DNA of 64,000 nucleotides from Dehalococcoidia bacterium (lineage in GTDB: Bacteria; Chloroflexota; Dehalococcoidia; Lucifugimonadales; UBA3495). The notes beneath the pieces were generated by a model, which did not search any database, was not told where the DNA came from, and was given only the letters and a program-made list of their open reading frames with translations. Below are positions 9,954 through 29,159 of this stretch, one piece after another. The DNA is taken from the NCBI GenBank assembly GCA_965242615.1, contig CBDESR010000005.1:1300768-1364767 (forward strand), given 5' to 3'. How positions within the stretch are numbered: the stretch's first letter is position 1; each line of letters opens with the position of its first letter. A program made the translations under genes and the position numbers.

Positions 9954-12173
9954 CTATTCCCCCCGCCCCTTTTGCCGCCGCCAAATGCGCGCCAACCGCA
10001 GCTCGTCATAAGTAAATTGGCCGGCCAGGTATTCCCACGCCGGGTTAAGGAAATCGTCGCCGCAGGCGTCAAAGGCGGCGTTGATTTGGTCGAACCGTTC
10101 CGCAGCCGGCAGCAAGTGGGCTAAATCCAGAGTTTCCCCCTGCATCGTCAGCCGCTCCAGATGCCCCAAGATAGTCTGCTCCGCCAAGTTGCGCCGGCGG
10201 GCGATTTCGGATAGGGAAAGTTTTTGTTCCAGCAGAGCGCGGGTGGCGGCGTAGGTATTGCTTCGCCGGGGTTCCAAGGTCGGTTGCCGGCCTTCCCGTT
10301 CCCGGCCGCTGCGATTCGCCGCCGCCGCCAGCGGCCGCGCCGCCGTGCGGTCGGCAATGCCCCGGGCCGCCGCATACTGGCGGATGGCGGCCACAAAGCG
10401 CGGGCCGTACTGCTCCAACTTGGCCGCCCCTACGCCGGGGATTTGGGCAAAGCTGTCCAGACTTTGCGGAAAGAGGGCCGCCATCTGGCGCAGGGATACA
10501 TCGCCGAAAACCACATACGCCGGCACATCCTGCTCCTCCGCCAACTGACGGCGCAGGTTCCGCAGTTCCGCAAACAGAGCCGTATCATATTCCGCGGCGG
10601 CCGCCGCCTTGCCGGCCAATGGCGCAGTAGCGGCTTCCGTCTCCGGCCGGGGACGGGGCAGCGTCAGCTTTTGCCGTTCCTGGAGAAACCGCCGCCCCTT
10701 ATCGGTTACGCCCAGAGTAGGAAACTCCCCTTCATTGCGCGCCAGCAAACCCCGGGCCTGCAACTGTCCCATCAATTCCCGCAGTTCCGACCGTCCGAAA
10801 TCCCGGACGACGCCGTACACGCTCAACTGGTTATGCCCCAACTCCAGAACCCGCTTTTCCTGGCTGCCGGTCAGCACTTGGGCAATGTGCAATGCACCAA
10901 AACGCTGGCCGGTGCGGATGACGGCGGAGAGTATCTTTTGGGCTATTTCGGTAGCGTCAAACTCCTCGGACGCGGCCAGGCAGACATCGCAGCCGCCGCA
11001 GTTGTCCGTCGTCCAGTGTTCCCCGAAATACTCCAAAATGTAGCGGCGGCGGCAAGCCGGCAACTCGGCAAACTGCACCATCTGCGCCAGTTTCAACCGG
11101 GCGTTGCGCTGCTCGGCGGTATCCTCCATCTGGTTGATGAAATAGTCCTGCTTGGCTTTGTCGGCGTAGTTGTAGAACAGGACGCACTGGCTGGGCAAGC
11201 CATCCCGCCCGGCCCGGCCGGTTTCCTGATAGTAGCCTTCCAGCGACTTGGGCAGGCTGTAGTGAACCACCAGGCGAATATCCGGCTTGTCAATGCCCAT
11301 CCCGAAAGCAATCGTAGCAACGATAATCGGTACCCGGTCGCGGATAAAATCCTCTTGATTTTGCCGGCGGGAATCAGCGTTTAGTCCGGCGTGGTAAGGG
11401 CGGGCCGACAAGCCCCGGGCGTTCAAGTCATCAGCCAGTTCCTCGGTGTCCCGCCGGGAAAAGCAGTAAATGATAGTTGACTGCTGTCGCTGTTCCTGCA
11501 ACAGGGTGAGCAGCGCGCCCCAGGAGTTGCCTTTGGGCATTACGGCGTAGCTGAGATTGTCCCGGTTAAAGCTGGACAGGAAAACCCGCCCCGGCTGCAA
11601 ATCCAGTTGGCTGCTGATGTCGGCCCGCACCCGTTCCGTAGCGGTGGCGGTGAGGGCAATGACCGGCGTTTGGGGAAAGTCCCGCCGCAAGGCCCGCAGA
11701 TTGCGGTAATCCGGGCGAAACTCATGCCCCCATTCGGAAATGCAGTGGGCTTCGTCAATGGCAATGAGGCTCAACTCCAGATGTTCCAGAAAGTTGCGGA
11801 AACCGGGCAAAGCCAAGCGTTCCGGGGCCACATAGAGGATTTTGACTTCGCCCCGGGCCGTGGCGGCCTGCACCTGGTCAACTTCCGAAATGGGCAAAGA
11901 GCTGTTGATAAACCGGGCGGCGATGCCGTTGGCGTTCAGGGCATCCACCTGGTCTTTCATCAGGGCAATCAAGGGGGAAACCACCAGGGTAATGCCGGGG
12001 AAAAGCAGGGCCGGCAGCTGATAGCACAGGGATTTGCCGCCGCCGGTCGGCATCAACACCAGGCTATCCCCGCCCGCCAGGGTATGGCCGATAATCTCCT
12101 CCTGCAAGGGCCGGAAAGCGGCATACCCGAAATGGGATTTAAGCAGGTCGAGGGGGGCGGGGACGGCGTTCAT
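9954..12173 (-). CDS. recQ: ATP-dependent DNA helicase RecQ with C-terminal HRDC/HTH extension
   Basis: FGYAAFRPLQEEII, MPTGGGKSLCYQLPA, DEAHCISEWGHEFRPDY, Zn-binding CRRR...CGGCDVC; 739 aa. Confidence 0.95.
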   Translation of the reverse strand: MNAVPAPLDLLKSHFGYAAFRPLQEEIIGHTLAGGDSLVLMPTGGGKSLCYQLPALLFPGITLVVSPLIALMKDQVDALNANGIAARFINSSLPISEVDQVQAATARGEVKILYVAPERLALPGFRNFLEHLELSLIAIDEAHCISEWGHEFRPDYRNLRALRRDFPQTPVIALTATATERVRADISSQLDLQPGRVFLSSFNRDNLSYAVMPKGNSWGALLTLLQEQRQQSTIIYCFSRRDTEELADDLNARGLSARPYHAGLNADSRRQNQEDFIRDRVPIIVATIAFGMGIDKPDIRLVVHYSLPKSLEGYYQETGRAGRDGLPSQCVLFYNYADKAKQDYFINQMEDTAEQRNARLKLAQMVQFAELPACRRRYILEYFGEHWTTDNCGGCDVCLAASEEFDATEIAQKILSAVIRTGQRFGALHIAQVLTGSQEKRVLELGHNQLSVYGVVRDFGRSELRELMGQLQARGLLARNEGEFPTLGVTDKGRRFLQERQKLTLPRPRPETEAATAPLAGKAAAAAEYDTALFAELRNLRRQLAEEQDVPAYVVFGDVSLRQMAALFPQSLDSFAQIPGVGAAKLEQYGPRFVAAIRQYAAARGIADRTAARPLAAAANRSGREREGRQPTLEPRRSNTYAATRALLEQKLSLSEIARRRNLAEQTILGHLERLTMQGETLDLAHLLPAAERFDQINAAFDACGDDFLNPAWEYLAGQFTYDELRLARIWRRQKGRGE

Positions 12174-12221
12174 ACGGGGCGGAACCTTTGGGAAAGGTTA
12201 GGTTTGGCGGGTAGTTTGGGA

Positions 12222-13922
12222 TTATATACCAACTAAACGCCGGTTATCTTGCTTTTCCGGCAATTGCCCTATAGGTTCACAGCTCAGCTCGAACATTTCC
12301 CCCAACCGCCGGATTTCCGGGTCGTCCCAAGCCCATACCTTGCCGGCTTGCCCCTGGGCAATCAGATCCTTGACTTGGGCGATAATCCGGGCGCGGTTAG
12401 CGGCGCTGACCCACCAGGGATAAGGCATCCGCTCCAAGTCTTTGCTCTGGATATTCTGCGTGTGGTTGATAACCGTTTTCAGGATGCGGTTAGCCAGGGG
12501 CGACAAGAGCCAGCCCAAGGTGAAAAAAAGCTCCTCCCGGTCAATCCCTTCCCGCAGGAAAGCGCAGGGGGCGCCGCTGTCCAGCGCATAGCCCTCCGGG
12601 ATGTAGCGGGCAATGAACCGGGATGCGACCAGATGCCAGGTCAGCCCCTCTTTGCCAAAATAAGGCTGTCCGCCAACGCCGCGCAGGTACCAATTCCCGG
12701 TTTTCTTGTAGGTAAGCACCGCATCGCCGTCATTTTCCCAAAATATGTAATGGGTGGGCGGCGAGAATATCAGACGACTGTTCCCGATATTGTAAGGACG
12801 ATAGCGGGCATTGGGCAGGGGGATGACCAGGGGATTTTCCCGGGGCAATACCCGGACCCGCCGCTCGGTAGCGCCGCGGGCTTCGGCGTCTTTCAGCATA
12901 GCGCGGCGTTTCGGCGACAGCTTGCCCAGCCGGGCCCGTTCCAGTTCGTAATCCAGCGTAACCGGGGCTTCATAGAACTCGAAGCGATAGGGTTCGACTA
13001 TTCTCTGCTGTTCGTCAACGCGGCGGACAAAGAGCCGGTTTTTGCCGGTGGTCATACCACTGGACGCGACAAAATAATCGCCCAGCAGGGGGCCGGAGAA
13101 AAACCTTGCCAATTCCTCGGTAATTCCCCAAGACAAGTGGGGCGTGGATTTGATGATTTGCTTGGCCAGGGGGCGGGCGTTGTGTACCACGACGCCCCGG
13201 TTGACGCCCTTTTGGAAGTTCAGGGTCAGCGTGGGGTAATCGGTTTCCGCCGAGAACTGCTGAATATCGGTCAAGGTTACTGCGCCCTGCTCCATAATCA
13301 GCTGCCGCAAGCCGGCCATGGTCGGTATCGTCAGCAGGGTATTGCTGCATACGAATAGCAACCGCCCGCCGGGACGGAGCAAATCCAGGGCGGCCACGAT
13401 AAAAAAGGCGTAGGTTTCCTTCTTGATTTTCCGCCCCAGCCGCTTGCCCAGGATACGGTCCAGGGTGTCCTCAATAGCCGGGTCAAAAGTGCCGCCGAAA
13501 GGGGGATTGCCGATTATCAGGTCAAAACCTTCGGCTTGCAGGCCGGACTGGTCGGCGGGGGACATCCCGTTGACGATGCCCGACAGATACTCCCGGAAAA
13601 AATCGGCTTGGCGGACTTCTCCGCGCCAAGCGCACGGGAACTGCCGGGATTTTCCGGCCAGGATACGGTCAGACCTTGCCGCCAGTTCCGGGTCAATTTC
13701 AATGCCCAGCAACTCGACGCCCCGGCCGCTTTGGGCTGTCTCCGACGCGGTAAGACGGTCGGCAATAGCGGAAAGAAAGGCTCCGTCGCCGCAGGAAGGC
13801 TCCAGAATCCGCCGGCAACCCTCCAAGGGAACGCCAGCCACTATATCCCGCGCCAACCACTGCGGGGTCATATACTGCCCGGTCTGCCGCTTCATCGCCC
13901 GGTGGCGTTTGCTTTGGCTCAT
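12222..13922 (-). CDS. Gamma-class N6-adenine DNA methyltransferase (Eco57I/TaqI-like, stand-alone)
   Basis: YMTPQWLARDIV (motif X), ILEPSCGDGAFL (motif I), LIIGNPPFGG (motif IV), C-terminal TRD-like region. Confidence 0.85.
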   Translation of the reverse strand: MSQSKRHRAMKRQTGQYMTPQWLARDIVAGVPLEGCRRILEPSCGDGAFLSAIADRLTASETAQSGRGVELLGIEIDPELAARSDRILAGKSRQFPCAWRGEVRQADFFREYLSGIVNGMSPADQSGLQAEGFDLIIGNPPFGGTFDPAIEDTLDRILGKRLGRKIKKETYAFFIVAALDLLRPGGRLLFVCSNTLLTIPTMAGLRQLIMEQGAVTLTDIQQFSAETDYPTLTLNFQKGVNRGVVVHNARPLAKQIIKSTPHLSWGITEELARFFSGPLLGDYFVASSGMTTGKNRLFVRRVDEQQRIVEPYRFEFYEAPVTLDYELERARLGKLSPKRRAMLKDAEARGATERRVRVLPRENPLVIPLPNARYRPYNIGNSRLIFSPPTHYIFWENDGDAVLTYKKTGNWYLRGVGGQPYFGKEGLTWHLVASRFIARYIPEGYALDSGAPCAFLREGIDREELFFTLGWLLSPLANRILKTVINHTQNIQSKDLERMPYPWWVSAANRARIIAQVKDLIAQGQAGKVWAWDDPEIRRLGEMFELSCEPIGQLPEKQDNRRLVGI

Positions 13923-14029
13923 GGCACGAATCGCATACTGGACTGGTTCACCGCAAAGTCGGCACGCAAAAACGCGGTGAGTTGTTGTCTTTGGTTATGG
14001 AGCCGCGGGGGCGGGGGGTGTAGGGGGGA

Positions 14030-16102
14030 TTATTTTGCCAGACTGGAGGACTTGGAGCCGGCTACTGTCGGCTCCATACACCACTGATTCCGCAGGATTG
14101 CCAACTGCTCTACTGCAACTTTATCCAGCCGAAGCACCTCTACCAGCAGCCGGCGGTCCAGTTCCTGCCGTACCGGGTCATGATAGGCTTCATTAGCCGG
14201 CAGCATTCGCTCTTGACACAGTTCGTCGTAGATTTGCACCGCGGCCTCCATTTGCTCCTGCGTCAACCGCCGCAAGTCCAGCGTAGGAATGTTTGGAATG
14301 GCCGTAGCGGAAATGCTACCCCGCCCACCGGTAATCCGATTGCTCTCCAGCCAATAGCTGATTAGTCCCAGAGTGCCATTCAGCCAGGCACAAGTAGCTT
14401 TTTCCCGGGCAACCGTACTCATTCTCAGGTTGGGCCAAGCCCGCCCGCCGGCAGTTACCCGGCTAGTAAAAGCGGCGGCAATGGGATTGGAGTTAAAGCG
14501 AAAGTCCACATTGATATGGAGATGGCTGGCTTGCGCCCAAACGTTTCTGGCTTCCGACTCCGACGCATCGTCCTTTATGGTACCGGTGCTGTCCGGGGCT
14601 GTTTCCATACAGAACTGAACATCACTGTCCTTATTCCACAGCATCGGCCATTCAGCTCCAGAGCTAGCCCCCGCTTTGACCTGGAAAGGCCCCCGCTCCT
14701 CGATGTCCCGGGCTATCGGCCCGACAATGCCGATCGCTCCGGCCGGCGCAATGGGGATACGAACCGGCGCATAGTGTTGGGGCAGGCGCAGGATTCCCCG
14801 GGATAACTCCTCTACCGTCCGCACCAACCCCAAGTCAACTACACGGACAGACCCCCACCGGCCTAAAGGATGCACTCCCGTCAAGCGCACACTACCGACG
14901 ATGTTATCGCCGACTTTGAGGTCAGAGTGGTTGTTCAATTCCCTCAAACCGGAGATGGCTTGCCGGATAGCTTTGGCGGTCTCTTGGGCTTCCAGCTTGT
15001 TGGCGGGGCGTTCTTTCAGGTTGACGAAATGCGCCTGCCGCCTCGGCGACTCCCCGCGCCCCAAACGACGGGCGATGAGAATAACTTCGCCGATTTCAGT
15101 ATCGGCGGAAAAAGCCGCCTCCCGGTTTTCCGCTTGGGCAATGCTGATAACTACGATGTCATTGTAGCTTTCGCTGACCAAGCGGCGCAGCTTCTGCCAA
15201 CTCCAGCTTTGCTCGCCGTCATAACTGCCGCCCTGCATCGACGACATCGGCAATATCAAGGCAATATGGCCATTAGGCTTGACCATATTATGGGCAATAG
15301 CCGTGAAATGAGACCCTAGCCCGGCGTTGCCATCGCCAATCGTCTTTTTACTCAGTTTCTTGGTGCGGACGCTCATCGCCTTCTGCACTGCCGGCGTAGT
15401 CTGGAAAGCGGCGAAAGGCAGATTGACGGTGCTTTTCTCGTTATTCTTTCGTTTAGTGGGCGACGTAAAGGGCGGGTTCATAATTACCAAGTCTTGGCTC
15501 AAGGGAGACATATCCACTTCAATGGGCTTTTGTTCCCCGGCTGCCCCCATTGCCATTTGCTGAGACAACGGCAAGATTGCCTGCTTACGGGCGTTTTTCA
15601 AGTCCAGCAGTTCCAAGGAACCGATGGACACTACCGGCTTGCCCTTTTTGTCCTTTGACCCGGTATCGCCATAGTCGTACAATACGCTGCGGGTCTTTTC
15701 GTAATGCTCCCGGGGAGCAACCGAGGAAAGCAAGGACGCGGTCAGATGGACACCGGCCGGCATAATATCGCAGGCGGTCAAGCAGTTCTCCATCATATAG
15801 GAATGAACGGAATCGGGGTTGCCACCGTGGTTGCGATGCAGTTCCCGCGCCCGTTGGTAGGCGGCCAGAGGCAACCCGCCGGTGCCGCAGGCATAGTCGG
15901 CGATGTGGTAATTTTTCAAGGTTTCCGGATTGGCCCAATCCAGGCTTTCCGGTACCGCCAGATACGCCGCTAAAGTGGTCGACTCCGGCCGGGTGTAGTA
16001 AGTAGCCAGGGTTCTCCGGTCGGAAATGAGTTTCTGAAATACGGTGCCGGCCACGTCGTTGGTACGAATGGCTATCTGTATCTGGTTGGCCGTTCGGTTC
16101 AT
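14030..16102 (-). CDS. N6-adenine DNA methyltransferase-like protein with large C-terminal TRD
   Basis: ORF track gives 14030..16210. I prefer the internal ATG 16102..16100 (MNRTANQ), which forms an ATGA start/stop overlap with the upstream gene. Motifs YYTRPEST, ADYACGTGG, VIMNPPF. Confidence 0.75.
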   Translation of the reverse strand: MNRTANQIQIAIRTNDVAGTVFQKLISDRRTLATYYTRPESTTLAAYLAVPESLDWANPETLKNYHIADYACGTGGLPLAAYQRARELHRNHGGNPDSVHSYMMENCLTACDIMPAGVHLTASLLSSVAPREHYEKTRSVLYDYGDTGSKDKKGKPVVSIGSLELLDLKNARKQAILPLSQQMAMGAAGEQKPIEVDMSPLSQDLVIMNPPFTSPTKRKNNEKSTVNLPFAAFQTTPAVQKAMSVRTKKLSKKTIGDGNAGLGSHFTAIAHNMVKPNGHIALILPMSSMQGGSYDGEQSWSWQKLRRLVSESYNDIVVISIAQAENREAAFSADTEIGEVILIARRLGRGESPRRQAHFVNLKERPANKLEAQETAKAIRQAISGLRELNNHSDLKVGDNIVGSVRLTGVHPLGRWGSVRVVDLGLVRTVEELSRGILRLPQHYAPVRIPIAPAGAIGIVGPIARDIEERGPFQVKAGASSGAEWPMLWNKDSDVQFCMETAPDSTGTIKDDASESEARNVWAQASHLHINVDFRFNSNPIAAAFTSRVTAGGRAWPNLRMSTVAREKATCAWLNGTLGLISYWLESNRITGGRGSISATAIPNIPTLDLRRLTQEQMEAAVQIYDELCQERMLPANEAYHDPVRQELDRRLLVEVLRLDKVAVEQLAILRNQWCMEPTVAGSKSSSLAK

Positions 16103-17031
16103 CCGCTCCAGGATCGGCTCGGCTCGGCCTGAAAAGGCGTAACCTCTAACAGCAGTTCTTTTGCGATATGAAAGATGGGCCAATAGTTGATGGACAGGAT
16201 ATACTCCCACTGCTCAATCACGGCGTCTTGGGTCAGCCCAGATTCGGCCCTGACCTGAGCCAGGTTTTTAATGCCCCGGTAGCCGGCCAAGTTCTGCTGG
16301 CAAGCTAGAGCGTTAATCATAATGACCGCCGCCATTTTAGCCGTCTGCTCCCGCTGGGTTTTCTTATCCCAAGCTTCCTGCGCCTTATCTTTCTCGTCGA
16401 TAGGCGGGTAGGGCTGGCGGAGTTTGGCGGCGATTGCGATACATACCTCCGCAGGACAAGCCATCAGCATAGCTGCGGCGTCCTCAGTTCCTTGGCGCAG
16501 AGAAGTAACTGCCCTTTCGATTACATTAGGGGCTTCCGCCGCCGGCTTGATGAAATCTATCAGATGGCGGATGTCGCCGGAAATGAAACCCTGTTGCGGA
16601 AACCGGGTGTAATTGTTCGCAGTGCCTTGATAGGCGGCATAATCCAGATGCTCGCCATCTTTCAGCATTTGCTCGGCGATTGACCCGGTAGCGCACTGGT
16701 GGAGAGATTCAGGTGAACGGATAGCAATAACCGTGCTAACCGTGCCGAATCCTTCGGCAACCGGCGGGTTGAGTTCCCGCCCCAATCGCGTAAGACAGTC
16801 GTCAACGACGGTACGGGCCGGACGGTATTCGTTCTCCAGCACTATCGGTGGACTGTCCGCCCGGGTAATGAGTACGTCCGGCTTGTCTTGGGGGCCGCGC
16901 AATGCCCCCCTAAGCTCCTCCCGCACTCTCCAGCCCAAGCTGCCCGTCAGTTCACCTATGACACTGGCAATGCGCCCGTTCAGCTGCGGCTCTTCCAAGG
17001 CCATAAAGAATCCTCGCAATTTTAGGGGCAT
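16099..17031 (-). CDS. Hypothetical 310-aa partner of the methyltransferase; possible nuclease-like N-terminus
   Basis: Translationally coupled (ATGA) to 14030..16102. The segment DKPDVLITRADSPPIVLENEY resembles a PD...ExE/K arrangement (weak). Confidence 0.5.
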   Translation of the reverse strand: MPLKLRGFFMALEEPQLNGRIASVIGELTGSLGWRVREELRGALRGPQDKPDVLITRADSPPIVLENEYRPARTVVDDCLTRLGRELNPPVAEGFGTVSTVIAIRSPESLHQCATGSIAEQMLKDGEHLDYAAYQGTANNYTRFPQQGFISGDIRHLIDFIKPAAEAPNVIERAVTSLRQGTEDAAAMLMACPAEVCIAIAAKLRQPYPPIDEKDKAQEAWDKKTQREQTAKMAAVIMINALACQQNLAGYRGIKNLAQVRAESGLTQDAVIEQWEYILSINYWPIFHIAKELLLEVTPFQAEPSRSWSG

Positions 17032-17083
17032 TATATACCACTTTGCCCGGCCCGCAACCGCCGGGCGTCACTAACTGCCCGAT

Positions 17084-18331
17084 TCACCCTCCCCCAATCA
17101 ACACCACTTCCCGCTGCACCGGGCTGGTCGCATCAGGGCCGCTGGCTGACATATAGGCGTCAATTTCCGAGCGGACGCCAAAGTCCGGCAGGTAGATGCC
17201 CGGTTCAATGGAAAAGCCGACGCCGGGGATGATGCGGCGGGTGTCATAAGTCTCAAAGCCGTCCAGGTTCACCGCCTCGCCGTGCACTTCGCAGCTGATG
17301 CTGTGGCCCAAGCGATGGGTAAAGTAGTCGCCATAGCCGCGTTCCCCAATGTAGTTGCGGGCCGCCGCATCCGCCTGCCAGCCCGGCACCGCAACGCCGG
17401 CTTGATAGCAGTCTTTCAGGTACTGCAGGGCGGCGTCCCGCGCCCCGGTAACGATGTCAAAAATTTCCTGCTGCCGCTGCGGGACGCTAGCGCCCACATA
17501 CGCCGTCCAGGTAATATCGGCATAGACGCTGTCGCCGCCGCTCTCCTTGGCCCACAGGTCAATCAATACCCAATCGCCGGGTTGAAAGACACTGCTGCCC
17601 GCCGGCTCCGGTTCATAGTGGGGATCGGAGCAGTGGGCGTTGACCGACACTATCGGCCCGTCCGCCGTTTCCAAACTTTCCTCCCGAAAGCGGCGGCGGA
17701 TGAACTCGGCGATTTCGTATTCGGTAGGGCTATCGGGCAGCCGGGCCCCGATGCGGCGGAAAGCCTCATTGACAATCTGCCCCAACTTGGCGGCGGCCCG
17801 TTGGTGGCTGGCCAACTGCTGCGGCGTCCAACGCTGGGTAGCATACTGCATCAAATCCGCCGAGGAGACCACCGCCGGCCCCAAGCTGCGTACCAGTTCC
17901 ACGGTGCCGGCGTCCACCCGGGAAACCCGGGGCATCGCGTTCTGCGGCGAGTATTCCATTGCCACCTGCGGCGCGGCGGCCAGTAGCGGCGTCAGTTGAT
18001 CGAGCAGGCTTTGGCGGCTGCTATAGACCAGCAACTCGAAACCGGGCGCGGCGTCTCCGTCCCCAATGGCAGCATCCCCGGCAATGGCGGCCGATTGAGC
18101 TACGGCGGCAAACTTGCCGGCGTCCACATAATGAGTCAGCAGCCGGGACGGGCCGGCTTGCGGGATGTAGAGAAAGCAGGGGCGGGTTACATGGCCGGAG
18201 GCGGTAATCACCTGCCCAAAGATGGGATTGGACTGGCGGTAGTCGTAAATCAACCAGCCGGGCAGCCCTTCCTGAGCCATAAACTCCCGGGCCGACCGGA
18301 CAATGGATTGAAAGCTGTGGGCTTGGGGCAT
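17084..18331 (-). CDS. M24-family metallopeptidase (Xaa-Pro aminopeptidase-like)
   Basis: DLWAKE..YADITWT, HRLGHSISCEVHGE, FSIEPGIY metal-ligand pattern. Confidence 0.85.
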   Translation of the reverse strand: MPQAHSFQSIVRSAREFMAQEGLPGWLIYDYRQSNPIFGQVITASGHVTRPCFLYIPQAGPSRLLTHYVDAGKFAAVAQSAAIAGDAAIGDGDAAPGFELLVYSSRQSLLDQLTPLLAAAPQVAMEYSPQNAMPRVSRVDAGTVELVRSLGPAVVSSADLMQYATQRWTPQQLASHQRAAAKLGQIVNEAFRRIGARLPDSPTEYEIAEFIRRRFREESLETADGPIVSVNAHCSDPHYEPEPAGSSVFQPGDWVLIDLWAKESGGDSVYADITWTAYVGASVPQRQQEIFDIVTGARDAALQYLKDCYQAGVAVPGWQADAAARNYIGERGYGDYFTHRLGHSISCEVHGEAVNLDGFETYDTRRIIPGVGFSIEPGIYLPDFGVRSEIDAYMSASGPDATSPVQREVVLIGGG

Positions 18332-18350
18332 AAGTTTCTCCCGTCCCGCC

Positions 18351-19028
18351 CTACTCCCGAAACCGAAACTCCCGCAAATCCTCGGGAATAATCAGTTGGG
18401 CGGCGGTCAATTCCTGAATTTCCGCGGGCGTCCAGCCCGGGGCGTATTCCCGCAGCGCAAAGCCCTGCGGCGTTACCGCAAACAAGCCCAGGTCGGTGGC
18501 GACCAGCGTAACCGCGCCGGGCGCGGTAATGGGCAAGGCGCAGCGTTTCAGCAGCCGGGGCTGGCCGTCCCGGGTGCAATGCTCCATCGCGATAAAGACC
18601 CGCTGGGCGCAGGCGGCCAAATCCATTGCGCCGCCGATGCCGCCGCCCTTACGGGTGGGGATGCGCCAGTTGGCAAAGTCGCCGTTTTCCGCTACCTCAT
18701 AAGCCCCCATCACGGTAACATCCACCATCCCCTTGCGAATCAGGGCAAAGGAGTCGGCGTGGTGGACGATAGCCATTCCGGGCATAGCGGTAACATTCTG
18801 GCCGCCGGCGTTGACCAGGTGTTTGTCCTCTTGACCGGACGGGGCCAGCGGCCCGTAGCCGATGACGCCGTTTTCCGAATGAAAGACGAGGCTTTTGCCG
18901 GGGTCAACATAGTTGGAGCAGAGGGTAGGCATCCCTACGCCCAGGTTGACAATCCACTCATCCTGGAACTCCATAGCCAAGCGGTCGCACATAGCCTGGC
19001 GTTGCAGACGGGGCTTATCGGTTGCCAT
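18351..19028 (-). CDS. 3-oxoacid CoA-transferase subunit B
   Basis: ORF 18351..19178; real start ATG 19028 after an AAGGAGGA RBS. FHSENGVIGYGP (catalytic Glu), GGAMDL. Confidence 0.85.
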   Translation of the reverse strand: MATDKPRLQRQAMCDRLAMEFQDEWIVNLGVGMPTLCSNYVDPGKSLVFHSENGVIGYGPLAPSGQEDKHLVNAGGQNVTAMPGMAIVHHADSFALIRKGMVDVTVMGAYEVAENGDFANWRIPTRKGGGIGGAMDLAACAQRVFIAMEHCTRDGQPRLLKRCALPITAPGAVTLVATDLGLFAVTPQGFALREYAPGWTPAEIQELTAAQLIIPEDLREFRFRE

Positions 19029-19310
19029 GGGTTTCCTCCTTGCCGGAGCGGGATAGAGGCGCGGCCTAATAGTAGTGCGGCTGGGGTTCATCCTTGACCG
19101 GAGCCGGGGCCGGCTTGGCTTTAGCGGCCGGCTTTCCGCAAGGCACAGTGTATCACAAGTTAAGCAAAGGCCGGTCAAGGGCGCTTTCCTTATAATACAA
19201 CATTAAGCCGGGCGGGGTTCGGCACTGGGCGGGCGGTTGCCGTTGGGCTAATGCTTTGCTATTATTGGGCGGGACGGGCGGAAAATCTGACGGCAAAGGA
19301 TGGCAAGGCA

Positions 19311-20024: not shown

Positions 20025-21758
20025 CTACCCGGTGGAAGTAGCGCTTTCCGCTACCCGAGCAATGGCATCAAGAACTTCGGTGATTTCCGGGTCGATTTCC
20101 TCGCGGGGTACATACTGGGCCAGTTCGTAAAAGTCCTTCTTGTTCATCAAGTTGGGCAGGTCCAGTTTGGCGAAGTAAGCCCGGAACAAGGGCGTCAGAA
20201 AGTCGTCGCTTACTTTGGTGTCGGCATCCCAAGGGGAGCCTTTGCCGATGGTTTGCAAGGCGCTCTCCACATCCGCAATGGCTTCCCGCATTGCCCGCAG
20301 TCGACGGTCGGCTTCACTGGCGGCAAACAAAGGCTCGGCGGCGTCCCCTTCCGCGGCGGCCCGAGCATAGGCGGTCAGGGTAGACTGGGAACAAAGGTAG
20401 TTCTCAATTTCCCGGCGCCGCCAGGATATAATTTCCAAGCCGTCCCCACTCCTTGCCGGCGGCGTATCCAGCCGGTCGAATATGGCTACTCCTTTCAAGT
20501 CAGGGAGGGCTTCCCGCAAACCATAGTAATGGTTTTGGGCTTTGCTGGGTTGGTTCTCTACATAGGAAACGAAAGCCATCGACAAGGATTTCCGGGCCTT
20601 ATCGTGGCCCAGCTTGAGGGCAAAGGCTTGCAATATCGCCAAGTCGGTGGAACCTTCCAAATAGAGGTTCCAACCGGTCTGTTCGGCTTGGTAATACTGG
20701 TCGAAGCCGATTTCCCGCAGGGATTTCAGAACTTGGCGGCCCCGGTCATCAATGCGATGGGGTTGACCGACGAAAGCGATGACCATATCCCGACCGGCGG
20801 CTTCGTTGAGCAACACTTCGGAGTGACTGGCGGCAATTATCTGGCTGTTGCTGGCGGCGGCTACTTCGCTAATCTGGCGGTAGATTTGCCGCTGGCGCAA
20901 TATCTCGAGATGGGCGTCCGGTTCATCCAGCAAGAGAACCGCGCCGGGGTTGGCGTACATATAAGCCAGGATGAGCAAAGTCTGCTGCAAGCCGCGGCCG
21001 GTGGAGGACAAATCCAGAGCTACGCCGCGCTCTCGGTAGCTCATTACAATTTCGCCCCGTTCCGCTACATAGCGGGGAGCTTCAAGGTCAACGCGAAACA
21101 AATCCTGTATCTGGGCAACCAAATTGGCCCATTGACCGAGCTGCTCGTTGTAAATGCGGAAACATAGATTCCGCAGCACCTCGGCGGTGCGCCCTTCACC
21201 GACCCGGACATTTACCGCACCTACATCTAATCGGGTTTCAGTGGCCGCTAACCCGGACATCGGGGGTAGGAAGGCAATCTGCAACCCCTTTACTTCGGCT
21301 TCCGGAATTTCCATCCGCTCCGAACCCGCAGCGTCAGAGCGCAAAGGGCGGCAATAGAAAGACTCCTCGTTAGCGTAGTCGAACTCCAACCCGCAATTCC
21401 AGTGGAGGTCATTGTTCACCCCGGATACGGTGACATCGATACGCACGTTTTCCGTGTGCTGCTGACCCTGGTTATACTGGCTGTTCCGCACATGGAGTTC
21501 GTACCACAGCAAACGGGCGCTGGGTACGGGAATAGCAACCAAATCCCGGCGGTTGACGGTAATGCCGCGGCTGGAGCCGGCGGCTTTACCGGAGCGGCGT
21601 TCCAGCCACCGTTTCAGGCCAATGTCCCACAGGGCCAAAGCCTGCATCGCTGAAGTCTTGCCGGAGTTGTTAGGCCCGATAAATACTACCGGGTTTCCCA
21701 ACTCGATTTCGACTTCGCCAAGCCGTTTGAAGTTGCGTATGACGATGTTGGTAAGCAT
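20025..21758 (-). CDS. ABC/AAA-type ATPase fused to a Toprim/DUF4435-like domain (OLD-family, PARIS AriA-AriB-like fusion)
   Basis: Walker A GPNNSGKTS (aa 28-36), signature-like LSSTGRGLQQ, Walker B VLLLDEPDAHL, AASHS. C-terminal LYLEGSTDLAILQAFA and WRRREIENYL resemble Toprim/DUF4435. Confidence 0.7.
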   Translation of the reverse strand: MLTNIVIRNFKRLGEVEIELGNPVVFIGPNNSGKTSAMQALALWDIGLKRWLERRSGKAAGSSRGITVNRRDLVAIPVPSARLLWYELHVRNSQYNQGQQHTENVRIDVTVSGVNNDLHWNCGLEFDYANEESFYCRPLRSDAAGSERMEIPEAEVKGLQIAFLPPMSGLAATETRLDVGAVNVRVGEGRTAEVLRNLCFRIYNEQLGQWANLVAQIQDLFRVDLEAPRYVAERGEIVMSYRERGVALDLSSTGRGLQQTLLILAYMYANPGAVLLLDEPDAHLEILRQRQIYRQISEVAAASNSQIIAASHSEVLLNEAAGRDMVIAFVGQPHRIDDRGRQVLKSLREIGFDQYYQAEQTGWNLYLEGSTDLAILQAFALKLGHDKARKSLSMAFVSYVENQPSKAQNHYYGLREALPDLKGVAIFDRLDTPPARSGDGLEIISWRRREIENYLCSQSTLTAYARAAAEGDAAEPLFAASEADRRLRAMREAIADVESALQTIGKGSPWDADTKVSDDFLTPLFRAYFAKLDLPNLMNKKDFYELAQYVPREEIDPEITEVLDAIARVAESATSTG

Positions 21759-21817
21759 AGCGCACGACCATCATGTGGATTATTGGGCCAATTATAGCAC
21801 AGCACAGTATAAAAGCA

Positions 21818-21869
21818 GGGGCGCACCCCGCGGGATGCGCCCCCTAATCCATTGCCGGCTGATGGACTG
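21818..21869. repeat. 52-bp hairpin-containing repeat, copy 1
   Basis: GGGGCGCACCCCGCGGGATGCGCCCCCTAATCCATTGCCGGCTGATGGACTG; 50/52 identical to 35255..35306. Contains the 8-bp stem GGGGCGCA/TGCGCCCC. Confidence 0.9.
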
Positions 21870-22042
21870 CCCTCCCAGCAGGTCGACAGTGGTAACGACA
21901 ACGCCCCTTAATCACTGCGCCGGCTAAGACTGTCCTACCTCATCGCTATTGTTGCTCAGCCCACGGCAAGACAGCCCGAATGCCTGGGGCAGGAGGGGAC
22001 GAGTGCCGCCAGCCTTTTACCACCCTGCGTTGCTGGCTGGCG

Positions 22043-22211
22043 GGATGGACAGGAGTTTGTGCCGGGGTTTGAGACGGATGAGCCGGGGGCGTTTCTGGAT
22101 TTGGTGATGGCGCTGCGGGAGTTGGCGGCGCGGCCCTACACGCTGCGGGACACGCCGATATTTACGGGTTTGCGGAAGTCGGTGCGGGAGTGTTTGGAGG
22201 GGGTGGGGTGA
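22043..22211 (+). pseudogene. Orphan 3' fragment of a ChdC-like gene (direct repeat copy 2)
   Basis: Encodes ..QEFVPGFETDEPGAFLDLVMALRELAARPYTLRDTPIFTGLRKSVRECLEGVG* in frame with its own stop but no 5' part. Confidence 0.85.
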
Positions 22212-22237
22212 TGCAGAAAATTCTGCGTAGGCCAACG

Positions 22238-23236
22238 TCAGAACGGAAGGTCGTCAATATCCCTTTCTGCCCTTGCTACGGGGCGCGCAGGCCGCAACAT
22301 TCGCTCGAAATGTGCCTTCAGGTCTTCCATGACCTCTGGCACGTATTCAGGCAACACGCGTTGCGTCCTGGTTATCAGGTTGACCATATCTTGGAAAGAC
22401 CTCCGGGCCTTCGCAGAATCGCCATCTCTCGCACTTCGATAGGCATCCATACCAAGATCGTAAAGCCAAGGCGAACTCTCTTTAAGATCACTAAGCAGCA
22501 CGAGGAAACCGGGAGCACCCGAGAGCCTCATTGCAATCACCCTAGATTGCTCTGACGAAACGAAATATGACCTTCCTTGCGGTATGCGGAGGGCCATTAC
22601 TTCGTCCAGTCTTGCCGAAAGACGACGGAGTTCCCGACTTTCCAGCCTACTGCCTACAATCTCCACCAAGTTTGACAGTTCGCTACGCACTTCAGATATG
22701 GTGGATAGCATATCTGCTATGGTGCGTTGCTCCGGGTCCTCGCTCTGGCGCAATCGTTGGAGGTCTAGGGCAACTGAGATAGGGGTCTCCAAGTCGTTGG
22801 GGTTGGCTTGCAGAGCCTTGACTTGTTCAGCAATGGACGTCTTCGCTTTCGCCACGTTGTCAAGGTCGTGGAGATCGATAAATACCGTTCGATTTCCTGC
22901 AACGTCAAAAGGTATTTCCTCACCCACCCGTATAATTTGCACGAACGGCTTAACTATGGCGTGGCGGAGGGCCAGTTCATAAAATACATTGGGATTCCGG
23001 TCAGTCAGGTCGGCGATGACAAGGTCGTCATCTACGATATGTTGAATTACCTGGCTCGTAATAATGCCAGGCTTGTCGATCTCGTCAGCCCGAGTAGACA
23101 CGTACCCCAGAGGCTCCACCGCCGGGCGAATGATGTGCTGGAGGACTTGATCGGAGTGCTTGCGGATCTCCGAATCAGGCTCACCAATCGGCGCGATAAC
23201 GAAACAGGACTTGCTGCCAGACTCTACCATCATCAT
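22238..23236 (-). CDS. Hypothetical protein with N-terminal TIR-like / nucleoside 2-deoxyribosyltransferase-like Rossmannoid domain and helical C-terminal half
   Basis: CFVIAPIGEPDSEIR...IIRPA...RADEI..PGIIT..VI..I...DLVIADLTDRNPNVFYELALRHA..KP pattern. Confidence 0.45.
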   Translation of the reverse strand: MMMVESGSKSCFVIAPIGEPDSEIRKHSDQVLQHIIRPAVEPLGYVSTRADEIDKPGIITSQVIQHIVDDDLVIADLTDRNPNVFYELALRHAIVKPFVQIIRVGEEIPFDVAGNRTVFIDLHDLDNVAKAKTSIAEQVKALQANPNDLETPISVALDLQRLRQSEDPEQRTIADMLSTISEVRSELSNLVEIVGSRLESRELRRLSARLDEVMALRIPQGRSYFVSSEQSRVIAMRLSGAPGFLVLLSDLKESSPWLYDLGMDAYRSARDGDSAKARRSFQDMVNLITRTQRVLPEYVPEVMEDLKAHFERMLRPARPVARAERDIDDLPF

Positions 23237-23614
23237 CTCCCGTTCGTCTGCCCTTACCTCTGGTCTTACTGGGGTAAAGATGCCGTAAGAATTTATACGG
23301 CCGCCAGATTTTATTATATGTGATTATCGTATGTCAAGCACATTGTGTCCATTTTATAGCCCCGTGCAAAAATCCTCTAGATTTCTTTTCCGTCCACCAA
23401 TGAAGACGAATTCCGCCGTTTTTCGCAGGAATTGTGACGGGGTGGAAATTTTGTGAAGGAGGAGTATTCTGCCTGTTTGGACTTTTGTTGGGGCGATTTC
23501 TATGACCGAATGGCTTATCCACTTGAAGGAACCAAGTGGTATTCAGACCGCGAGATAGAGTACGTTGTGACATCGATAGGGATTTAACCGTGGCTAGTTG
23601 TCCCGCCCTTTTGC

Positions 23615-24475
23615 CTATGGGCTTAGGCCGAAGGTGTTGATCCAGATGAGGGCTGTGGTACGGGATCGTTCTGCCTCAGATTTGGTTATGTTCCACTCTT
23701 GAGAGATGGCGCTGTAAGCATCCTCATCAGTCTGGCTTGCGGTGGCAAGCACACTTTCGATGAATGGTGATGCTTGCAGGGATAAACGAACCCAAGCGTT
23801 GAACTGCTCCTTGGCCAAGCCGGAGGGGATAGCTAATATCCCGACTTCCCTGATGGCGATTTCCTGTTGCTCGAGCGTAGGAATTTCAAGCCCACGCTGC
23901 TGGTATGCCAACCATAGGTAATCCGGATTTCGGGTGAGCGGCTTCCAGCCATCAAAGGATTCTGCGGTGTCTTGCCGTTCCAGCGGCGTATCAGAATGGA
24001 GGGTCGGGATAATCTGGTTCCAAGCATCGAACTCGGCATCGGAGACTTCGTGGGCTTTCAGGAATAGGAGGTGTTCAAACCATTCCGCGTCAAAGTCGGC
24101 CGGAGGTGGGCAAAGGATTTCCACGTTGCCGTTGCCATAAATGCTCATGCCAGCGTTGGTGAGGTTGGCCGAGCCTACCAAGACATTACTGTCGAAGCGG
24201 TAGTACTTGGCGTGAAGCCGGTTGTGGAGCAAAAAAGTTCCGTTGAGGCCCAGCACGAGAGGCCGGCAAGCCAAGTCAGTTGTTCCGGCTTGGATGTCCT
24301 GCGGAGTCCAGCGCGACACGCAGGTTATGCTGGCATCCGGAGCGATGGAGTTCAGGACAAGCGTCAGCGGTTGCTCCTTGATGTAAGGAGCAACTATGAC
24401 TGCTTCTTGGGCGTTGGCACAGGAAGCAGTTAATATTTCCCAGCAAGTGGGGTTATTCGGGAGAGTCGACGACAC
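23615..24475 (-). CDS. Phospholipase D-family (HxK) nuclease
   Basis: LHAKYYRFDSNVLVGSANLTNAG = HxK(x4)D(x6)GSxN (H88 codon at 24214..24212). GTG start overlaps the upstream stop by 23 nt. Confidence 0.8.
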   Translation of the reverse strand: MSSTLPNNPTCWEILTASCANAQEAVIVAPYIKEQPLTLVLNSIAPDASITCVSRWTPQDIQAGTTDLACRPLVLGLNGTFLLHNRLHAKYYRFDSNVLVGSANLTNAGMSIYGNGNVEILCPPPADFDAEWFEHLLFLKAHEVSDAEFDAWNQIIPTLHSDTPLERQDTAESFDGWKPLTRNPDYLWLAYQQRGLEIPTLEQQEIAIREVGILAIPSGLAKEQFNAWVRLSLQASPFIESVLATASQTDEDAYSAISQEWNITKSEAERSRTTALIWINTFGLSP

Positions 24476-26300
24476 CCTCGTCCATCAGCCTGCTTAAGAT
24501 GCGGCCCCATCGCCGACAAGTGTCTTGGAAATCGACTCGGGTTCGCTGGTCCTGGATTTCGTCTTCCATCCGGGCCAAGGCCAAGATGATAAGCCGGAGG
24601 GCACTGGCCGGGCGGCTGTCTTGCTCGTTGTTTTCCGAGCCAGCCTGGTTTTCCAGGAATTCAAGGTAGTCGTATGCCGGGTGATTGATGTTGAGTTTGA
24701 CCACCAATACCCCGGATTGGGAGGTTTCAACTTCAAACACCGCAGAGCCGCTGAGGCTCGCGTTGATGAACTTGTAACGGTATCGGCGTTCTACCGTTAT
24801 CTGGGCCTGCCTCTGGGCTTCCTCTAACGGGAGTCCCGATTCAGTAAGGTCTTTGGTGAGCTCTTCTATTTTCACGGTGTCTTCCACCGTGTCGAAAAGG
24901 TCATCGGTAGGCGTCCGCTCGGACTCTGAGTTGCGGAGAGCTTCCTCAATTGCTTGAGTGCCCAGTTCTTCCGCTTTTTGAACGGTGGTTACCGAGGAGA
25001 TGTCAACCGGACTGGATGGGCGAGGGCGCTGACTGAATTTGCGCTGGATCTCGCGCATCATATAGCGGACGGTGTTCCGGATATGTTCCGCTATGCCGTA
25101 CAGGTCGGTTTCCAGCCCGTCGGTCTCGTCTCGGGCCTCGGTGTCGCCGCTGTCTGACAAGTTCAGGTCTCGAAGTGCCCTGACAAAATGGGACACCGTT
25201 TGTTTGTTGTGGTCTACTCCGAAAAGGTCGTCGCACCCCTCGTTGAATTTTACTTCGCAGCCCCACCACCGGTTCAAAGGATGTGATCCACCTCCTTGGT
25301 CGGTGGTTGCCATGGTGCGGTCCAGAGTTATCTCGCGGTTTTCCCGAATGATGGAAACTCCCATGTTTTTGTTGGCGTGTTGACCGTAGTCGCGCTGGCC
25401 AGGCAGGTCACGGTAATTGCCTAAGGGTTCGCTTTTGACTAAGGAATACGTGACGGTGACGGTCTCCTCTTTGCCGTCAACTATGACGGTAAAATCCTGT
25501 GTGCGGAGGAGGTCGAACATAGGTTGGGCACCCCAGACTCCTGGGGTGTTTGAGGTTGGCATCAGATAAAGGGGATCGTTAGGTCGGACCTGCGCCTCGG
25601 CTATGATGGTGTTGTCCGGTTCCCAGAAGGAAGCCATCCGAATTGTCAAGGATTGGCTGTTGATGTAATGCCGGTAGATCCGCCCGATTTCCTCCTCGAT
25701 ATGTCGGAATACTGTGTCGGATCGCATAGTGATGCGGTCGATGTCGGACCACACTACCAGGGTGCCGCTGGAACTGACATTTTGTTTGGCTAGTTGCAGC
25801 CATTCTTGCGGGACAGGTTGCCGATCGGGAAAGATTAGGGACTGTTGACCGGCTTCCACTTCTTCTATGGATAGATAGGCGTGGTGGGAGCTGTCGGGGC
25901 CGTCTTGCCAGGACCAGACGTCTAATTTCTTGCACTGGGATGCGGACGACGTAGGCAACCCCATGCCATACTTTCCGATGGTTCTGACGCTTTGGAGAGG
26001 CTTGTGGCCTCCGAAGGACAGGGCTAAGGATAACGTCTCGGGAGACATACCTTCACCATTGTCGAGGACGGCGATTTTTTGAATCCGCTGGACGGTCCTG
26101 GTGGGGCCGGGGACTTGGGCTTCTTTAACCAAGAGTTCTACTTGGGAAGCGTTGGCATCAATGGAGTTGTCGATGAGTTCGGCGATGGCGTTGGCAGCAT
26201 GGGGGTAACGGCTGTCCCGGAGGGCCCTTATGAGCATCGCGGGCTGGAAGATGGGATTTGAGTCCGAGGAGCCGCTTTGGATACTTACGTCGGTTGCCAT
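24453..26300 (-). CDS. GHKL-superfamily ATPase, MORC/paraMORC-like
   Basis: ORF 24453..26477; I prefer ATG 26300 (MATDVSIQ), a 16-nt overlap with the helicase stop. N-box ELIDNSIDA, G1 VLDNGEGM, G2 IGKYGMGLPTSS. Confidence 0.8.
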   Translation of the reverse strand: MATDVSIQSGSSDSNPIFQPAMLIRALRDSRYPHAANAIAELIDNSIDANASQVELLVKEAQVPGPTRTVQRIQKIAVLDNGEGMSPETLSLALSFGGHKPLQSVRTIGKYGMGLPTSSASQCKKLDVWSWQDGPDSSHHAYLSIEEVEAGQQSLIFPDRQPVPQEWLQLAKQNVSSSGTLVVWSDIDRITMRSDTVFRHIEEEIGRIYRHYINSQSLTIRMASFWEPDNTIIAEAQVRPNDPLYLMPTSNTPGVWGAQPMFDLLRTQDFTVIVDGKEETVTVTYSLVKSEPLGNYRDLPGQRDYGQHANKNMGVSIIRENREITLDRTMATTDQGGGSHPLNRWWGCEVKFNEGCDDLFGVDHNKQTVSHFVRALRDLNLSDSGDTEARDETDGLETDLYGIAEHIRNTVRYMMREIQRKFSQRPRPSSPVDISSVTTVQKAEELGTQAIEEALRNSESERTPTDDLFDTVEDTVKIEELTKDLTESGLPLEEAQRQAQITVERRYRYKFINASLSGSAVFEVETSQSGVLVVKLNINHPAYDYLEFLENQAGSENNEQDSRPASALRLIILALARMEDEIQDQRTRVDFQDTCRRWGRILSRLMDEGVVDSPE

Positions 26301-29156: not shown

Positions 29157-29159
29157 TTT

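What the first reader, a model, noticed from the sequence alone, without database searches (positions are those of the whole stretch)
12222..17031. Split MmeI/Eco57I-like arrangement: 310-aa protein ATGA-coupled to an NPPF methyltransferase-TRD, plus a second stand-alone NPPF methyltransferase
Seen: the 310-aa ORF stop (TGA 16101..16099) overlaps an in-frame ATG (16102..16100) of the downstream 690-aa protein, which carries DYACGTGG and MNPPF. A second gamma-class enzyme (GDGAF, GNPPFGG) follows 107 nt later. The 310-aa protein has KPDVLITR...VLENEY, which could be a PD-ExE/K nuclease core followed by a helical connector. Established knowledge: type IIG/IIL enzymes (MmeI, Eco57I) have the order nuclease, helical region, gamma-MTase, TRD in one chain, and Eco57I is accompanied by a separate methyltransferase. 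Inference: this is a two-polypeptide version of such an enzyme. No obvious nuclease exists elsewhere in the cluster.
Basis: partly seen in the sequence, partly recalled or inferred. Interest (0 to 1): 0.55.

Follow-up and report, generated by a model that had tools for sequence, protein, structure and literature searches.

The report
Frameshift-split type IIG restriction-modification gene
The two overlapping genes are the halves of one ordinary ~990-residue combined restriction-and-methylation enzyme gene that a five-base duplication has broken in this strain, and the neighbouring methyltransferase is an unrelated stand-alone enzyme rather than its regular partner.

Summary
The sequence features are all present as described: the ATGA overlap, DYACGTGG/MNPPF, GDGAF/GNPPFGG, the 107-nt gap and KPDVLITR…VLENEY. 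The domain guess also holds. A confident AlphaFold model of the closest intact relative (pLDDT 91.5) matches the type IIG enzyme BpuSI best over the whole chain (E 3e-18). It shows an N-terminal PD-(D/E)XK-like nuclease (PD-x13-ExE), a helical connector, a gamma N6-adenine methyltransferase and a TRD.

The "two-polypeptide version" is not a designed arrangement. On the minus strand at 16128..16114 the window carries (GCCGA)x3. Removing one unit gives an uninterrupted 998-codon ORF. A 97%-identical relative with the same gene order has (GCCGA)x2 and an intact 989-aa gene, and a 92%-identical relative is also intact. More than 120 homologues, and most of 80 species loci, are single chains of about 1000 aa. 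The ATG of the "downstream gene" is an internal Met codon of the family.

The 566-aa methyltransferase belongs to a large family of stand-alone enzymes. It lies next to this gene only in the window's lineage. It is absent from the 92% relative and from all 80 other loci.

Verdict: a recent slippage frameshift in a solitary, uncharacterised type IIG gene. It is ordinary and of low interest.

The parts
16099..17031 (-). N-terminal fragment ORF (310 aa as listed; probably 301 aa from ATG 17004). It holds the nuclease domain and most of the helical connector, and ends in 6 out-of-frame residues (SRSWSG) and a TGA.
16537..16992 (-). Predicted PD-(D/E)XK-like endonuclease domain (residues ~14-165 of the 310-aa ORF). 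Putative catalytic residues: E39 (16917..16915), P51-D52 (D at 16878..16876), E66 (16836..16834), E68 (16830..16828), giving PD-x13-ExE.
   Evidence: AF2 pLDDT >90 for residues 14-160. Top PDB fold hits are all restriction-endonuclease-like folds. In 88 homologues: D 88/88, E66 87/88, E68 85/88 with K in 2/88, E39 82/88.
16114..16128 (-). (GCCGA)x3 pentanucleotide repeat, the site of the +5-nt frameshift. The intact relatives read GCCGA GCCGA (L089) or GCCGA GCCTA (L007).
16099..16102 (-). ATGA: the stop of the frameshifted N-fragment overlaps an internal Met codon of the ancestral gene. A GGAG lies 3 nt upstream, so reinitiation is possible.
   Evidence: reinitiation is inference
14030..16102 (-). 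C-terminal fragment ORF (690 aa from ATG 16102): end of the connector, gamma-class N6-adenine methyltransferase (motif I DYACGTGG 15898..15875; motif IV NPPF within 15481..15467) and a C-terminal TRD of roughly 350 aa.
12222..13922 (-). Separate 566-aa stand-alone gamma-class N6-adenine DNA methyltransferase (Pfam Eco57I + N6_Mtase; M.TaqI/M.BseCI-like catalytic domain; PglX-like C-terminal region). It is not a conserved partner of the type IIG gene.

Best explanation
Window 17004..14030 (-) is one gene for a solitary, single-chain type IIG restriction-modification enzyme of about 989 aa. Its domain order is N-terminal PD-x13-ExE nuclease, helical connector, gamma N6-adenine methyltransferase, TRD. 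In this strain it has been broken by slipped-strand duplication of one GCCGA unit (x2 to x3) inside the connector. The duplication shifts the frame, so the first product ends after 6 aberrant residues at a TGA that overlaps an internal ATG.

Shown: the repeat, the restored ORF, the intact close relatives, the fold, the lack of conserved neighbours.

Inferred: the intact enzyme binds an asymmetric site through its TRD, methylates one adenine and cuts at a fixed distance, as BpuSI and MmeI do. In the window, restriction is most likely lost because the nuclease is no longer tethered to the DNA-recognition module. A 690-aa methyltransferase-TRD product may or may not be made by reinitiation at the ATGA.

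The 566-aa methyltransferase downstream is an independent stand-alone enzyme, placed next to this gene only in this lineage.
For: Deleting 5 nt of the (GCCGA)x3 repeat gives a 998-codon ORF with no stop.

L089 is 96.2% identical over window 19132..12222 and has the same order: CoA-transferase, M24 peptidase, this gene, 566-aa MTase. It carries (GCCGA)x2 and an intact 989-aa gene. The 5-nt unit is the only indel inside the CDS, and one of only two indels in 6.9 kb.

L007 (92% identical) is also intact, and the 5-nt unit is the only indel in 3 kb.

More than 120 homologues of 965-1111 aa cover 93-99% of the repaired protein. About 70 of 80 species-representative loci read through in one frame.

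The full-length AF2 model has pLDDT 91.5 and pTM 0.93. Its best PDB match is BpuSI at E 3e-18 over the whole chain, followed by BrxX/PglX, DrdV, CamA, M.BseCI and LlaBIII. The N-domain alone matches restriction-endonuclease-like folds.

Catalytic and SAM motifs are invariant or nearly so across 88 homologues and are intact in the window.

Differences from L089 are mostly synonymous (N part 18 synonymous to 1 non-synonymous; C part 38 to 20), so the break is recent.

No conserved neighbour exists in 81 loci. There is no 566-aa homologue within +-8 kb in 80 loci.

Frameshift-split type IIG genes that are inactive until repaired are documented in H. pylori (PMC3936762).
Against: No activity data exist for any member of the family.

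Foldseek E-values for the isolated N-domain are weak (about 0.02), and the motif is ExE rather than ExK.

The source and sequencing technology of the window are unknown, so an assembly artefact cannot be formally excluded.

Both halves keep every motif, and the stop/start overlap with a nearby GGAG would allow coupled translation, so a working two-piece enzyme is not excluded.

The 989-aa/566-aa adjacency recurs in L089, so a lineage-specific functional pairing is possible.
Confidence: 0.85

Rival explanations
1. Sequencing or assembly artefact: the real genome has (GCCGA)x2 and an intact gene.
For: Several homologues in public long-read, low-coverage assemblies show ragged frameshifts at various positions. 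Neither the window's 310-aa ORF product nor its 566-aa protein is on record in the protein collection, so the source could not be checked.
Against: The change is a whole 5-nt repeat unit, which is typical of replication slippage and not of homopolymer miscalls. Only one other indel, in non-coding sequence, separates the window from a 96% identical relative over 6.9 kb, so the assembly is not indel-prone.
Confidence: 0.08
2. Functional split enzyme. The 301-aa nuclease-connector protein and the translationally coupled 690-aa methyltransferase-TRD protein assemble non-covalently and restrict DNA, with the 566-aa enzyme as the Eco57I-style protecting methyltransferase.
For: There is an ATGA overlap with GGAG 3 nt upstream. 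All catalytic motifs are intact in both halves. In BpuSI the nuclease packs against the methyltransferase domain (PMC3185434). BpuSI and some other type IIG systems have separate methyltransferases. The 989/566 adjacency is also seen in L089.
Against: The split is unique to this sequence, while a 97% identical relative is fused. The break lies inside the connector and leaves a 6-residue nonsense tail. The start codon is an internal Met of the family, not an evolved start. The two methyltransferases share no TRD similarity; BLASTP finds only the NPPF region at E 0.036. The 566-aa gene is absent from L007 and from 80 other loci.
Confidence: 0.04
3. Phase variation: the pentanucleotide repeat is a contingency switch that reversibly turns restriction off, possibly leaving a methyltransferase-only product.
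For: Two repeat-number alleles (x2 and x3) exist in 97% identical strains. Phase-variable type IIG genes are known in H. pylori and C. jejuni.
Against: There are only 2-3 repeat units, whereas known contingency loci carry long homopolymers or many units. L007 has an imperfect repeat (GCCGA GCCTA), so the tract is not conserved. Two scans of JGI metagenome contigs for x2-x4 alleles found nothing.
Confidence: 0.03

Closest known systems
RM.BpuSI (type IIG/IIS/IIC, Bacillus pumilus; PDB 3s1s)
   Same: It is the best whole-chain structural match (E 3e-18). It has the same domain order: N-terminal PD-(D/E)XK nuclease, helical connector, M.TaqI-like gamma N6A methyltransferase, C-terminal TRD (PMC3185434).
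   Different: Only about 12% sequence identity. BpuSI has PD-x15-ExK, whereas this family has PD-x13-ExE. BpuSI is encoded with two companion methyltransferases, M1 and M2, whereas this family is a solitary gene in nearly all loci. The window copy is frameshifted.
MmeI / DrdV family (type IIL)
   Same: A single-chain enzyme combining restriction, modification and specificity. It is a solitary gene with no companion methyltransferase, which fits lone-strand modification for self-protection. DrdV is among the top fold hits.
   Different: No MmeI_N, MmeI_hel, MmeI_TRD or MmeI_C Pfam hit. MmeI_Mtase appears only at E 0.005-0.03, below threshold, in two distant relatives.
Eco57I / AcuI-type systems (type IIG enzyme plus a separate methyltransferase)
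   Same: The Pfam Eco57I methyltransferase model (PF07669) is passed by distant family members and by the 566-aa enzyme. The window and L089 have a bifunctional gene followed by a separate gamma-methyltransferase.
   Different: The window's own methyltransferase domain scores below the Pfam threshold (17.5 against 25.3 bits). The companion is not conserved. There is no TRD similarity between the two proteins.
Frameshift-split type IIG genes of Helicobacter pylori (HP1353-HP1354, JHP1272)
   Same: One type IIG gene is read as two ORFs because a short repeat changed length. Those genes were inactive until repaired (PMC3936762).
   Different: Those frameshifts sit in long homopolymer tracts that vary at high frequency. 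Here it is a 2-to-3-unit pentanucleotide duplication.
BamHI-type PD...ExE active-site variant (from general knowledge, not tested here)
   Same: The third catalytic position is Glu instead of Lys, as in BamHI D94/E111/E113. Two of 88 family members have the canonical Lys there.
   Different: There is no detectable relationship to BamHI beyond the shared superfamily fold.

Membership tests
Type IIG (bifunctional RM) restriction enzymes | Endonuclease and methyltransferase in one polypeptide | tested here: not met
   In the window the gene is split by a +5-nt frameshift. The feature is met in the 97% and 92% relatives and in more than 120 homologues. The window copy is therefore a disrupted member.
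Type IIG (bifunctional RM) restriction enzymes | N-terminal PD-(D/E)XK-fold nuclease domain with conserved acidic catalytic residues | tested here: met
   The AF2 core has pLDDT >90. The top PDB fold hits are all restriction-endonuclease-like, although E is only about 0.02 for the isolated domain. BpuSI aligns over the whole chain. D is invariant and ExE is 85-87 of 88.
Type IIG (bifunctional RM) restriction enzymes | Gamma-class N6-adenine methyltransferase domain (motif I xxGxG, motif IV NPPF/Y) followed by a TRD | tested here: met
   DYACGTGG and NPPF are invariant or near-invariant. PF07669 is above threshold in distant members. Fold matches include BpuSI, PglX, DrdV, CamA and M.BseCI, TRD region included.
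Type IIG (bifunctional RM) restriction enzymes | SAM-stimulated cleavage at a fixed distance from an asymmetric site; hemi-methylation | not testable with these tools
   Needs enzyme assays and methylome data.
MmeI family (type IIL) | Sequence membership: Pfam MmeI_N, MmeI_hel, MmeI_Mtase, MmeI_TRD, MmeI_C | tested here: not met
   No hit at or above threshold in the window proteins or in 10 family members.
MmeI family (type IIL) | No companion methyltransferase (lone-strand protection) | tested here: inconclusive
   The gene is solitary in 81 loci. An unlinked methyltransferase cannot be excluded, and the window lineage has an adjacent one.
Eco57I-type system | A bifunctional enzyme consistently linked to a separate methyltransferase of the same specificity | tested here: not met
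   The 566-aa gene is absent from L007 and from 80 loci, and lies about 400 kb from the type IIG gene on the circular chromosome OZ220473.1. No TRD similarity.
Phase-variable (contingency) RM genes | A hypermutable simple-sequence tract in the ORF, with repeat-number variation among close strains | tested here: inconclusive
   Alleles x2 and x3 are seen in 97% identical sequences. However, the tract has only 2-3 units and is imperfect in L007.

The most novel reading that the evidence does not exclude
The frameshift produces a naturally occurring two-subunit type IIG enzyme. A free nuclease-connector protein would dock onto a translationally coupled methyltransferase-TRD protein, resembling a miniature Res/Mod system. 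Alternatively, it acts as a switch that turns a restriction enzyme into a methyltransferase-only epigenetic enzyme while a nuclease fragment is still expressed.
Probability: 0.05. Interest if true: 0.5.

Novelty: new member of a known kind. Interest (0 to 1): 0.2.

Why it matters
For annotation, window 17004..14030 should be called one disrupted type IIG gene, not two genes and not a new split architecture. The 566-aa methyltransferase should be treated as a separate enzyme.

Of modest wider interest, the intact gene belongs to a sizeable family with no Pfam or NCBIfam model for its nuclease and TRD parts. The family has 625 cluster representatives carrying the N-domain and at least 320 matching stretches in species-representative genomes, mainly Dehalococcoidia/SAR202-type MAGs. 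It has a PD-x13-ExE active site and a solitary-gene lifestyle. It could be a source of new type IIG/IIL specificities, but nothing about its predicted mechanism is unexpected.

Tried and rejected
- PDB sequence-profile search with the family alignment gave nothing significant; the best hit was GGA1 at E 0.12, and PglX scored E 0.44.
- Pfam, NCBIfam and PADLOC on the 310-aa piece gave no hits.
- Exact-sequence look-ups of the window's 310-aa and 566-aa proteins, meant to identify the source assembly, found neither on record.
- Two scans of JGI metagenome contigs for the junction with 2-4 repeat units gave 0 hits, so allele frequencies could not be estimated.
- Programmed -1 ribosomal frameshifting as a way to read through was rejected. 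There is no slippery X XXY YYZ heptamer in CAGGCCGAGCCGAGCCGATCCTGGAGCGGATGA (by inspection).
- I looked for target-site duplications or repeats at the borders of the 1.85-kb segment carrying the 566-aa gene, relative to L007. None was evident, and a repeat finder failed on strand syntax.
- The promoter/terminator scan of 11900..17400 was not above the shuffled expectation.
- I looked for a conserved neighbour gene, which would indicate a multi-gene system. The next most frequent neighbour cluster occurs in only 8 of 81 loci and is a housekeeping SDR.
- The first homologue search, with the 310-aa query, returned only truncated proteins of 523 aa or less. That briefly suggested a systematically split family.
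- The BpuSI follow-up paper was checked for nuclease-deletion or in-trans data, and none was found.
Full report
**1. The observation**

- On the minus strand a 310-aa ORF (17031..16099) ends in a TGA that overlaps an ATG (16102..16100). That ATG opens a 690-aa frame running to 14030.
- The 690-aa product has DYACGTGG (15898..15875) and MNPPF (15481..15467).
- The 566-aa ORF (13922..12222) starts 107 nt further on and has GDGAF and GNPPFGG.
- The 310-aa product has KPDVLITR…VLENEY.
- The flanking genes are an M24 peptidase (18331..17084) and RecQ (12173..9954).
- The true start of the first ORF is probably ATG 17004, giving 301 aa. Homologues begin there, GAGGA lies 6 nt upstream, ATG 17031 lies in a TATAAT-like box, and the closest relative has a 1-nt indel at 17030.

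**2. The two ORFs are one gene**

Homologues of the 310-aa protein do not stop where it stops. They continue in frame into …M..TAN.I..AI..NDVAGTVFQRLIADRQTLATYYTRPE…DYACGxGG, which is the N-terminus of the window's 690-aa protein (alignment A1).

The junction DNA on the minus strand reads CAG GCCGA GCCGA GCCGA TCCTGGAGCGGATGA, so GCCGA is present three times at 16128..16114. Deleting one unit gives a 998-codon ORF with no internal stop: …TPFQAEPILERMNRTANQ….

A search with the repaired protein returned more than 120 proteins of 965-1111 aa covering 93-99% of it. The closest is P0043, 989 aa and 93% identical.

Two close relatives settle the direction of change.
- L007 is 92% identical in DNA over window 17071..14027. 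It differs by a single indel in 3 kb, the 5-nt GCCGA.
- L089 is 96.2% identical over window 19132..12222 and 97.2% within the gene. It has the same gene order: CoA-transferase, M24 peptidase, this gene, 566-aa methyltransferase. It carries (GCCGA)x2 and an intact 989-aa ORF. In 6.9 kb there are only two indels, this one and a non-coding 1-nt indel.

The split is therefore a derived +5-nt tandem duplication. It looks like slipped-strand mispairing and not like a homopolymer-type sequencing error. The "start codon" of the 690-aa ORF is an internal Met of the family, and the ATGA overlap is a by-product of the shifted frame.

Substitutions relative to L089 are mostly synonymous: 18 synonymous to 1 non-synonymous in the N part, and 38 to 20 in the C part. 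All motifs are intact. The event is therefore recent.

**3. What the intact gene encodes**

Sequence libraries say little. Pfam, NCBIfam and PADLOC find nothing for the N-terminal 300 aa. For the middle they give only sub-threshold Eco57I, Alw26I or mad2 methyltransferase hits. Distant family members do pass the Pfam Eco57I methyltransferase threshold (P0263 38.8 bits, also P0251, P0301 and P0304).

Structure prediction is clearer.
- The 310-aa fragment folds into a confident alpha/beta core (residues 14-160, pLDDT >90) followed by helices. Its PDB neighbours are all restriction-endonuclease-like folds: 3ijm and 3ot2 (DUF820/Uma2), the R2 RLE domain, AF1548, the SPARDA nuclease, McrC, MspJI, NucS and BpuSI. 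The E-values are weak at about 0.02, with probabilities of 0.9-0.99 for the top hits.
- The full-length model of P0043 is very confident (pLDDT 91.5, pTM 0.93). Its best match is the type IIG enzyme RM.BpuSI (3s1s) at E 3e-18, aligned over the whole chain. Next come BREX PglX/BrxX, the type IIL enzyme DrdV, CamA, M.BseCI, HsdM and the type ISP enzyme LlaBIII.
- BpuSI has the order PD-x15-ExK nuclease (residues 6-174), helical connector (175-289), M.TaqI-like methyltransferase (293-579), TRD (PMC3185434). The present family has the same order.

Across 88 homologues the putative nuclease residues are conserved (window numbering):
- E39: 82 of 88.
- P51-D52: D in 88 of 88.
- E66: 87 of 88.
- E68: 85 of 88, with the canonical Lys in 2 of 88.

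This is a PD-x13-ExE variant. From general knowledge, BamHI uses ExE. Methyltransferase motifs I and IV are invariant.

The frameshift falls inside the helical connector, around residue 303 of 998. It separates the nuclease and most of the connector from the methyltransferase-TRD.

**4. Genomic behaviour of the family**

The N-domain has 625 representatives at 50% clustering with E<=1e-3, many of them 940-1010 aa. In species-representative genomes at least 320 matching stretches were confirmed. Most are in Dehalococcoidia MAGs. Others are in Acidobacteriota, Longimicrobiales, Alpha- and Gammaproteobacteria and Rhizobium terrae.

In about 70 of the 80 loci fetched, the gene reads through in one frame. 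A few are broken at other positions or decayed.

No neighbour is conserved. The next most common flanking cluster is found in 8 of 81 loci and is a housekeeping dehydrogenase. The gene is therefore a solitary one-gene module that appears in varied contexts. In L008 it even sits between the E1-alpha and E1-beta genes of a dehydrogenase, and L001 has a decayed remnant at the same place. This fits a self-sufficient type IIG/IIL-like enzyme, but an unlinked protecting methyltransferase cannot be excluded.

**5. The second methyltransferase**

The 566-aa protein passes Pfam Eco57I and N6_Mtase. Its catalytic region matches M.TaqI and M.BseCI, and its C-terminal region matches the PglX TRD region. 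It belongs to a large, well conserved family of stand-alone enzymes of about 565 aa, with 1164 hits.

The evidence that it is not a regular partner:
- It is adjacent to the type IIG gene in the window and in L089.
- It is absent from L007, where RecQ follows the type IIG gene after 37 nt.
- No homologue lies within +-8 kb of the type IIG gene in 80 other loci.
- In genome OZ220473.1 the two genes lie at 2.80 Mb and 0.29 Mb of a circular 2.9-Mb chromosome, about 400 kb apart by the shorter path.
- The two window methyltransferases share no similarity outside the NPPF region.

The Eco57I-style "companion" reading is therefore not supported as a family property. A lineage-specific functional pairing cannot be excluded, and BpuSI itself has companion methyltransferases.

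**6. Mechanism and consequences**

Inferred for the intact enzyme, by analogy with BpuSI and MmeI: the TRD recognises a specific site, the gamma-methyltransferase modifies one adenine using SAM, and the tethered PD…ExE nuclease cuts at a distance set by the connector.

In the window the nuclease is no longer joined to the recognition module, so restriction is most likely lost. Comparable frameshift-split type IIG genes in H. pylori were inactive until repaired (PMC3936762).

A 690-aa methyltransferase-TRD product could arise by reinitiation at the ATGA, since a GGAG lies 3 nt upstream. This is untested.

The rivals are an assembly artefact (about 0.08), a working two-piece enzyme (about 0.04) and phase variation (about 0.03). 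The report sections give the evidence for each.

**7. Verdict**

The headline claim of a split two-polypeptide architecture with an Eco57I-like partner is not right. This is a recently frameshifted copy of a solitary, uncharacterised but conventional-looking type IIG gene, with an unrelated stand-alone methyltransferase next to it. It is a new member of a known kind and of low interest.

Noticed in passing
window 20025-31787 (-), with 33562-34959 (+) and 38188-39399 (-): A probable defence island with lower GC (0.53-0.56). It contains a 577-aa AAA_21/AAA_15 OLD-like ATPase (AriA/GajA-like), a 332-aa protein with a weak TIR-effector hit, a 286-aa PLD-like protein, a 674-aa HATPase_c_3 MzaB-like protein, a 416-aa ResIII/DEAD helicase, a 543-aa DUF6339 protein and two proteins with no family (282 and 589 aa). 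DDE transposases follow.
   Followed up: partly
L008 8001-11039 (same contig as L012); L001 8001-9342: In two related Dehalococcoidia genomes the type IIG gene sits between the E1-alpha and E1-beta genes of a 2-oxoacid dehydrogenase. In L001 only a decayed remnant is left at that site: residues 12-394 joined to 949-994, with the methyltransferase and most of the TRD deleted.
   Followed up: partly
L077 8001-10790 and 10975-13761; also L040, L045, L073, L075: Some genomes carry two paralogous copies of the ~1000-aa gene, in L077 directly in tandem. This could mean two specificities side by side.
   Followed up: no
L091 5303-6004 and L092 5618-6004: Homologues of the 566-aa methyltransferase in other genomes are preceded by a small ORF with no Pfam hit (233 aa and 128 aa) that overlaps the methyltransferase start by 4 nt. 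This may be a partner of unknown function. The window has no equivalent.
   Followed up: no
window 17004-17060 (-): The listed ATG at 17031 lies inside a TATAAT-like sequence (GGTATATAATG). The in-frame ATG at 17004 has GAGGA 6 nt upstream and matches the start of the homologues, so the N-terminal fragment is probably 301 aa, not 310 aa.
   Followed up: yes
alignment A3, column of window residue E68: Two of 88 family members have Lys instead of Glu at the third catalytic position, giving ExK rather than ExE. This supports the assignment of this position to the PD-(D/E)XK motif.
   Followed up: partly
P0003 (492 aa; alignment): One homologue joins the N-terminal nuclease-connector region directly to the last ~160 residues of the TRD, with the methyltransferase domain deleted. 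This is another decayed form of the gene.
   Followed up: no
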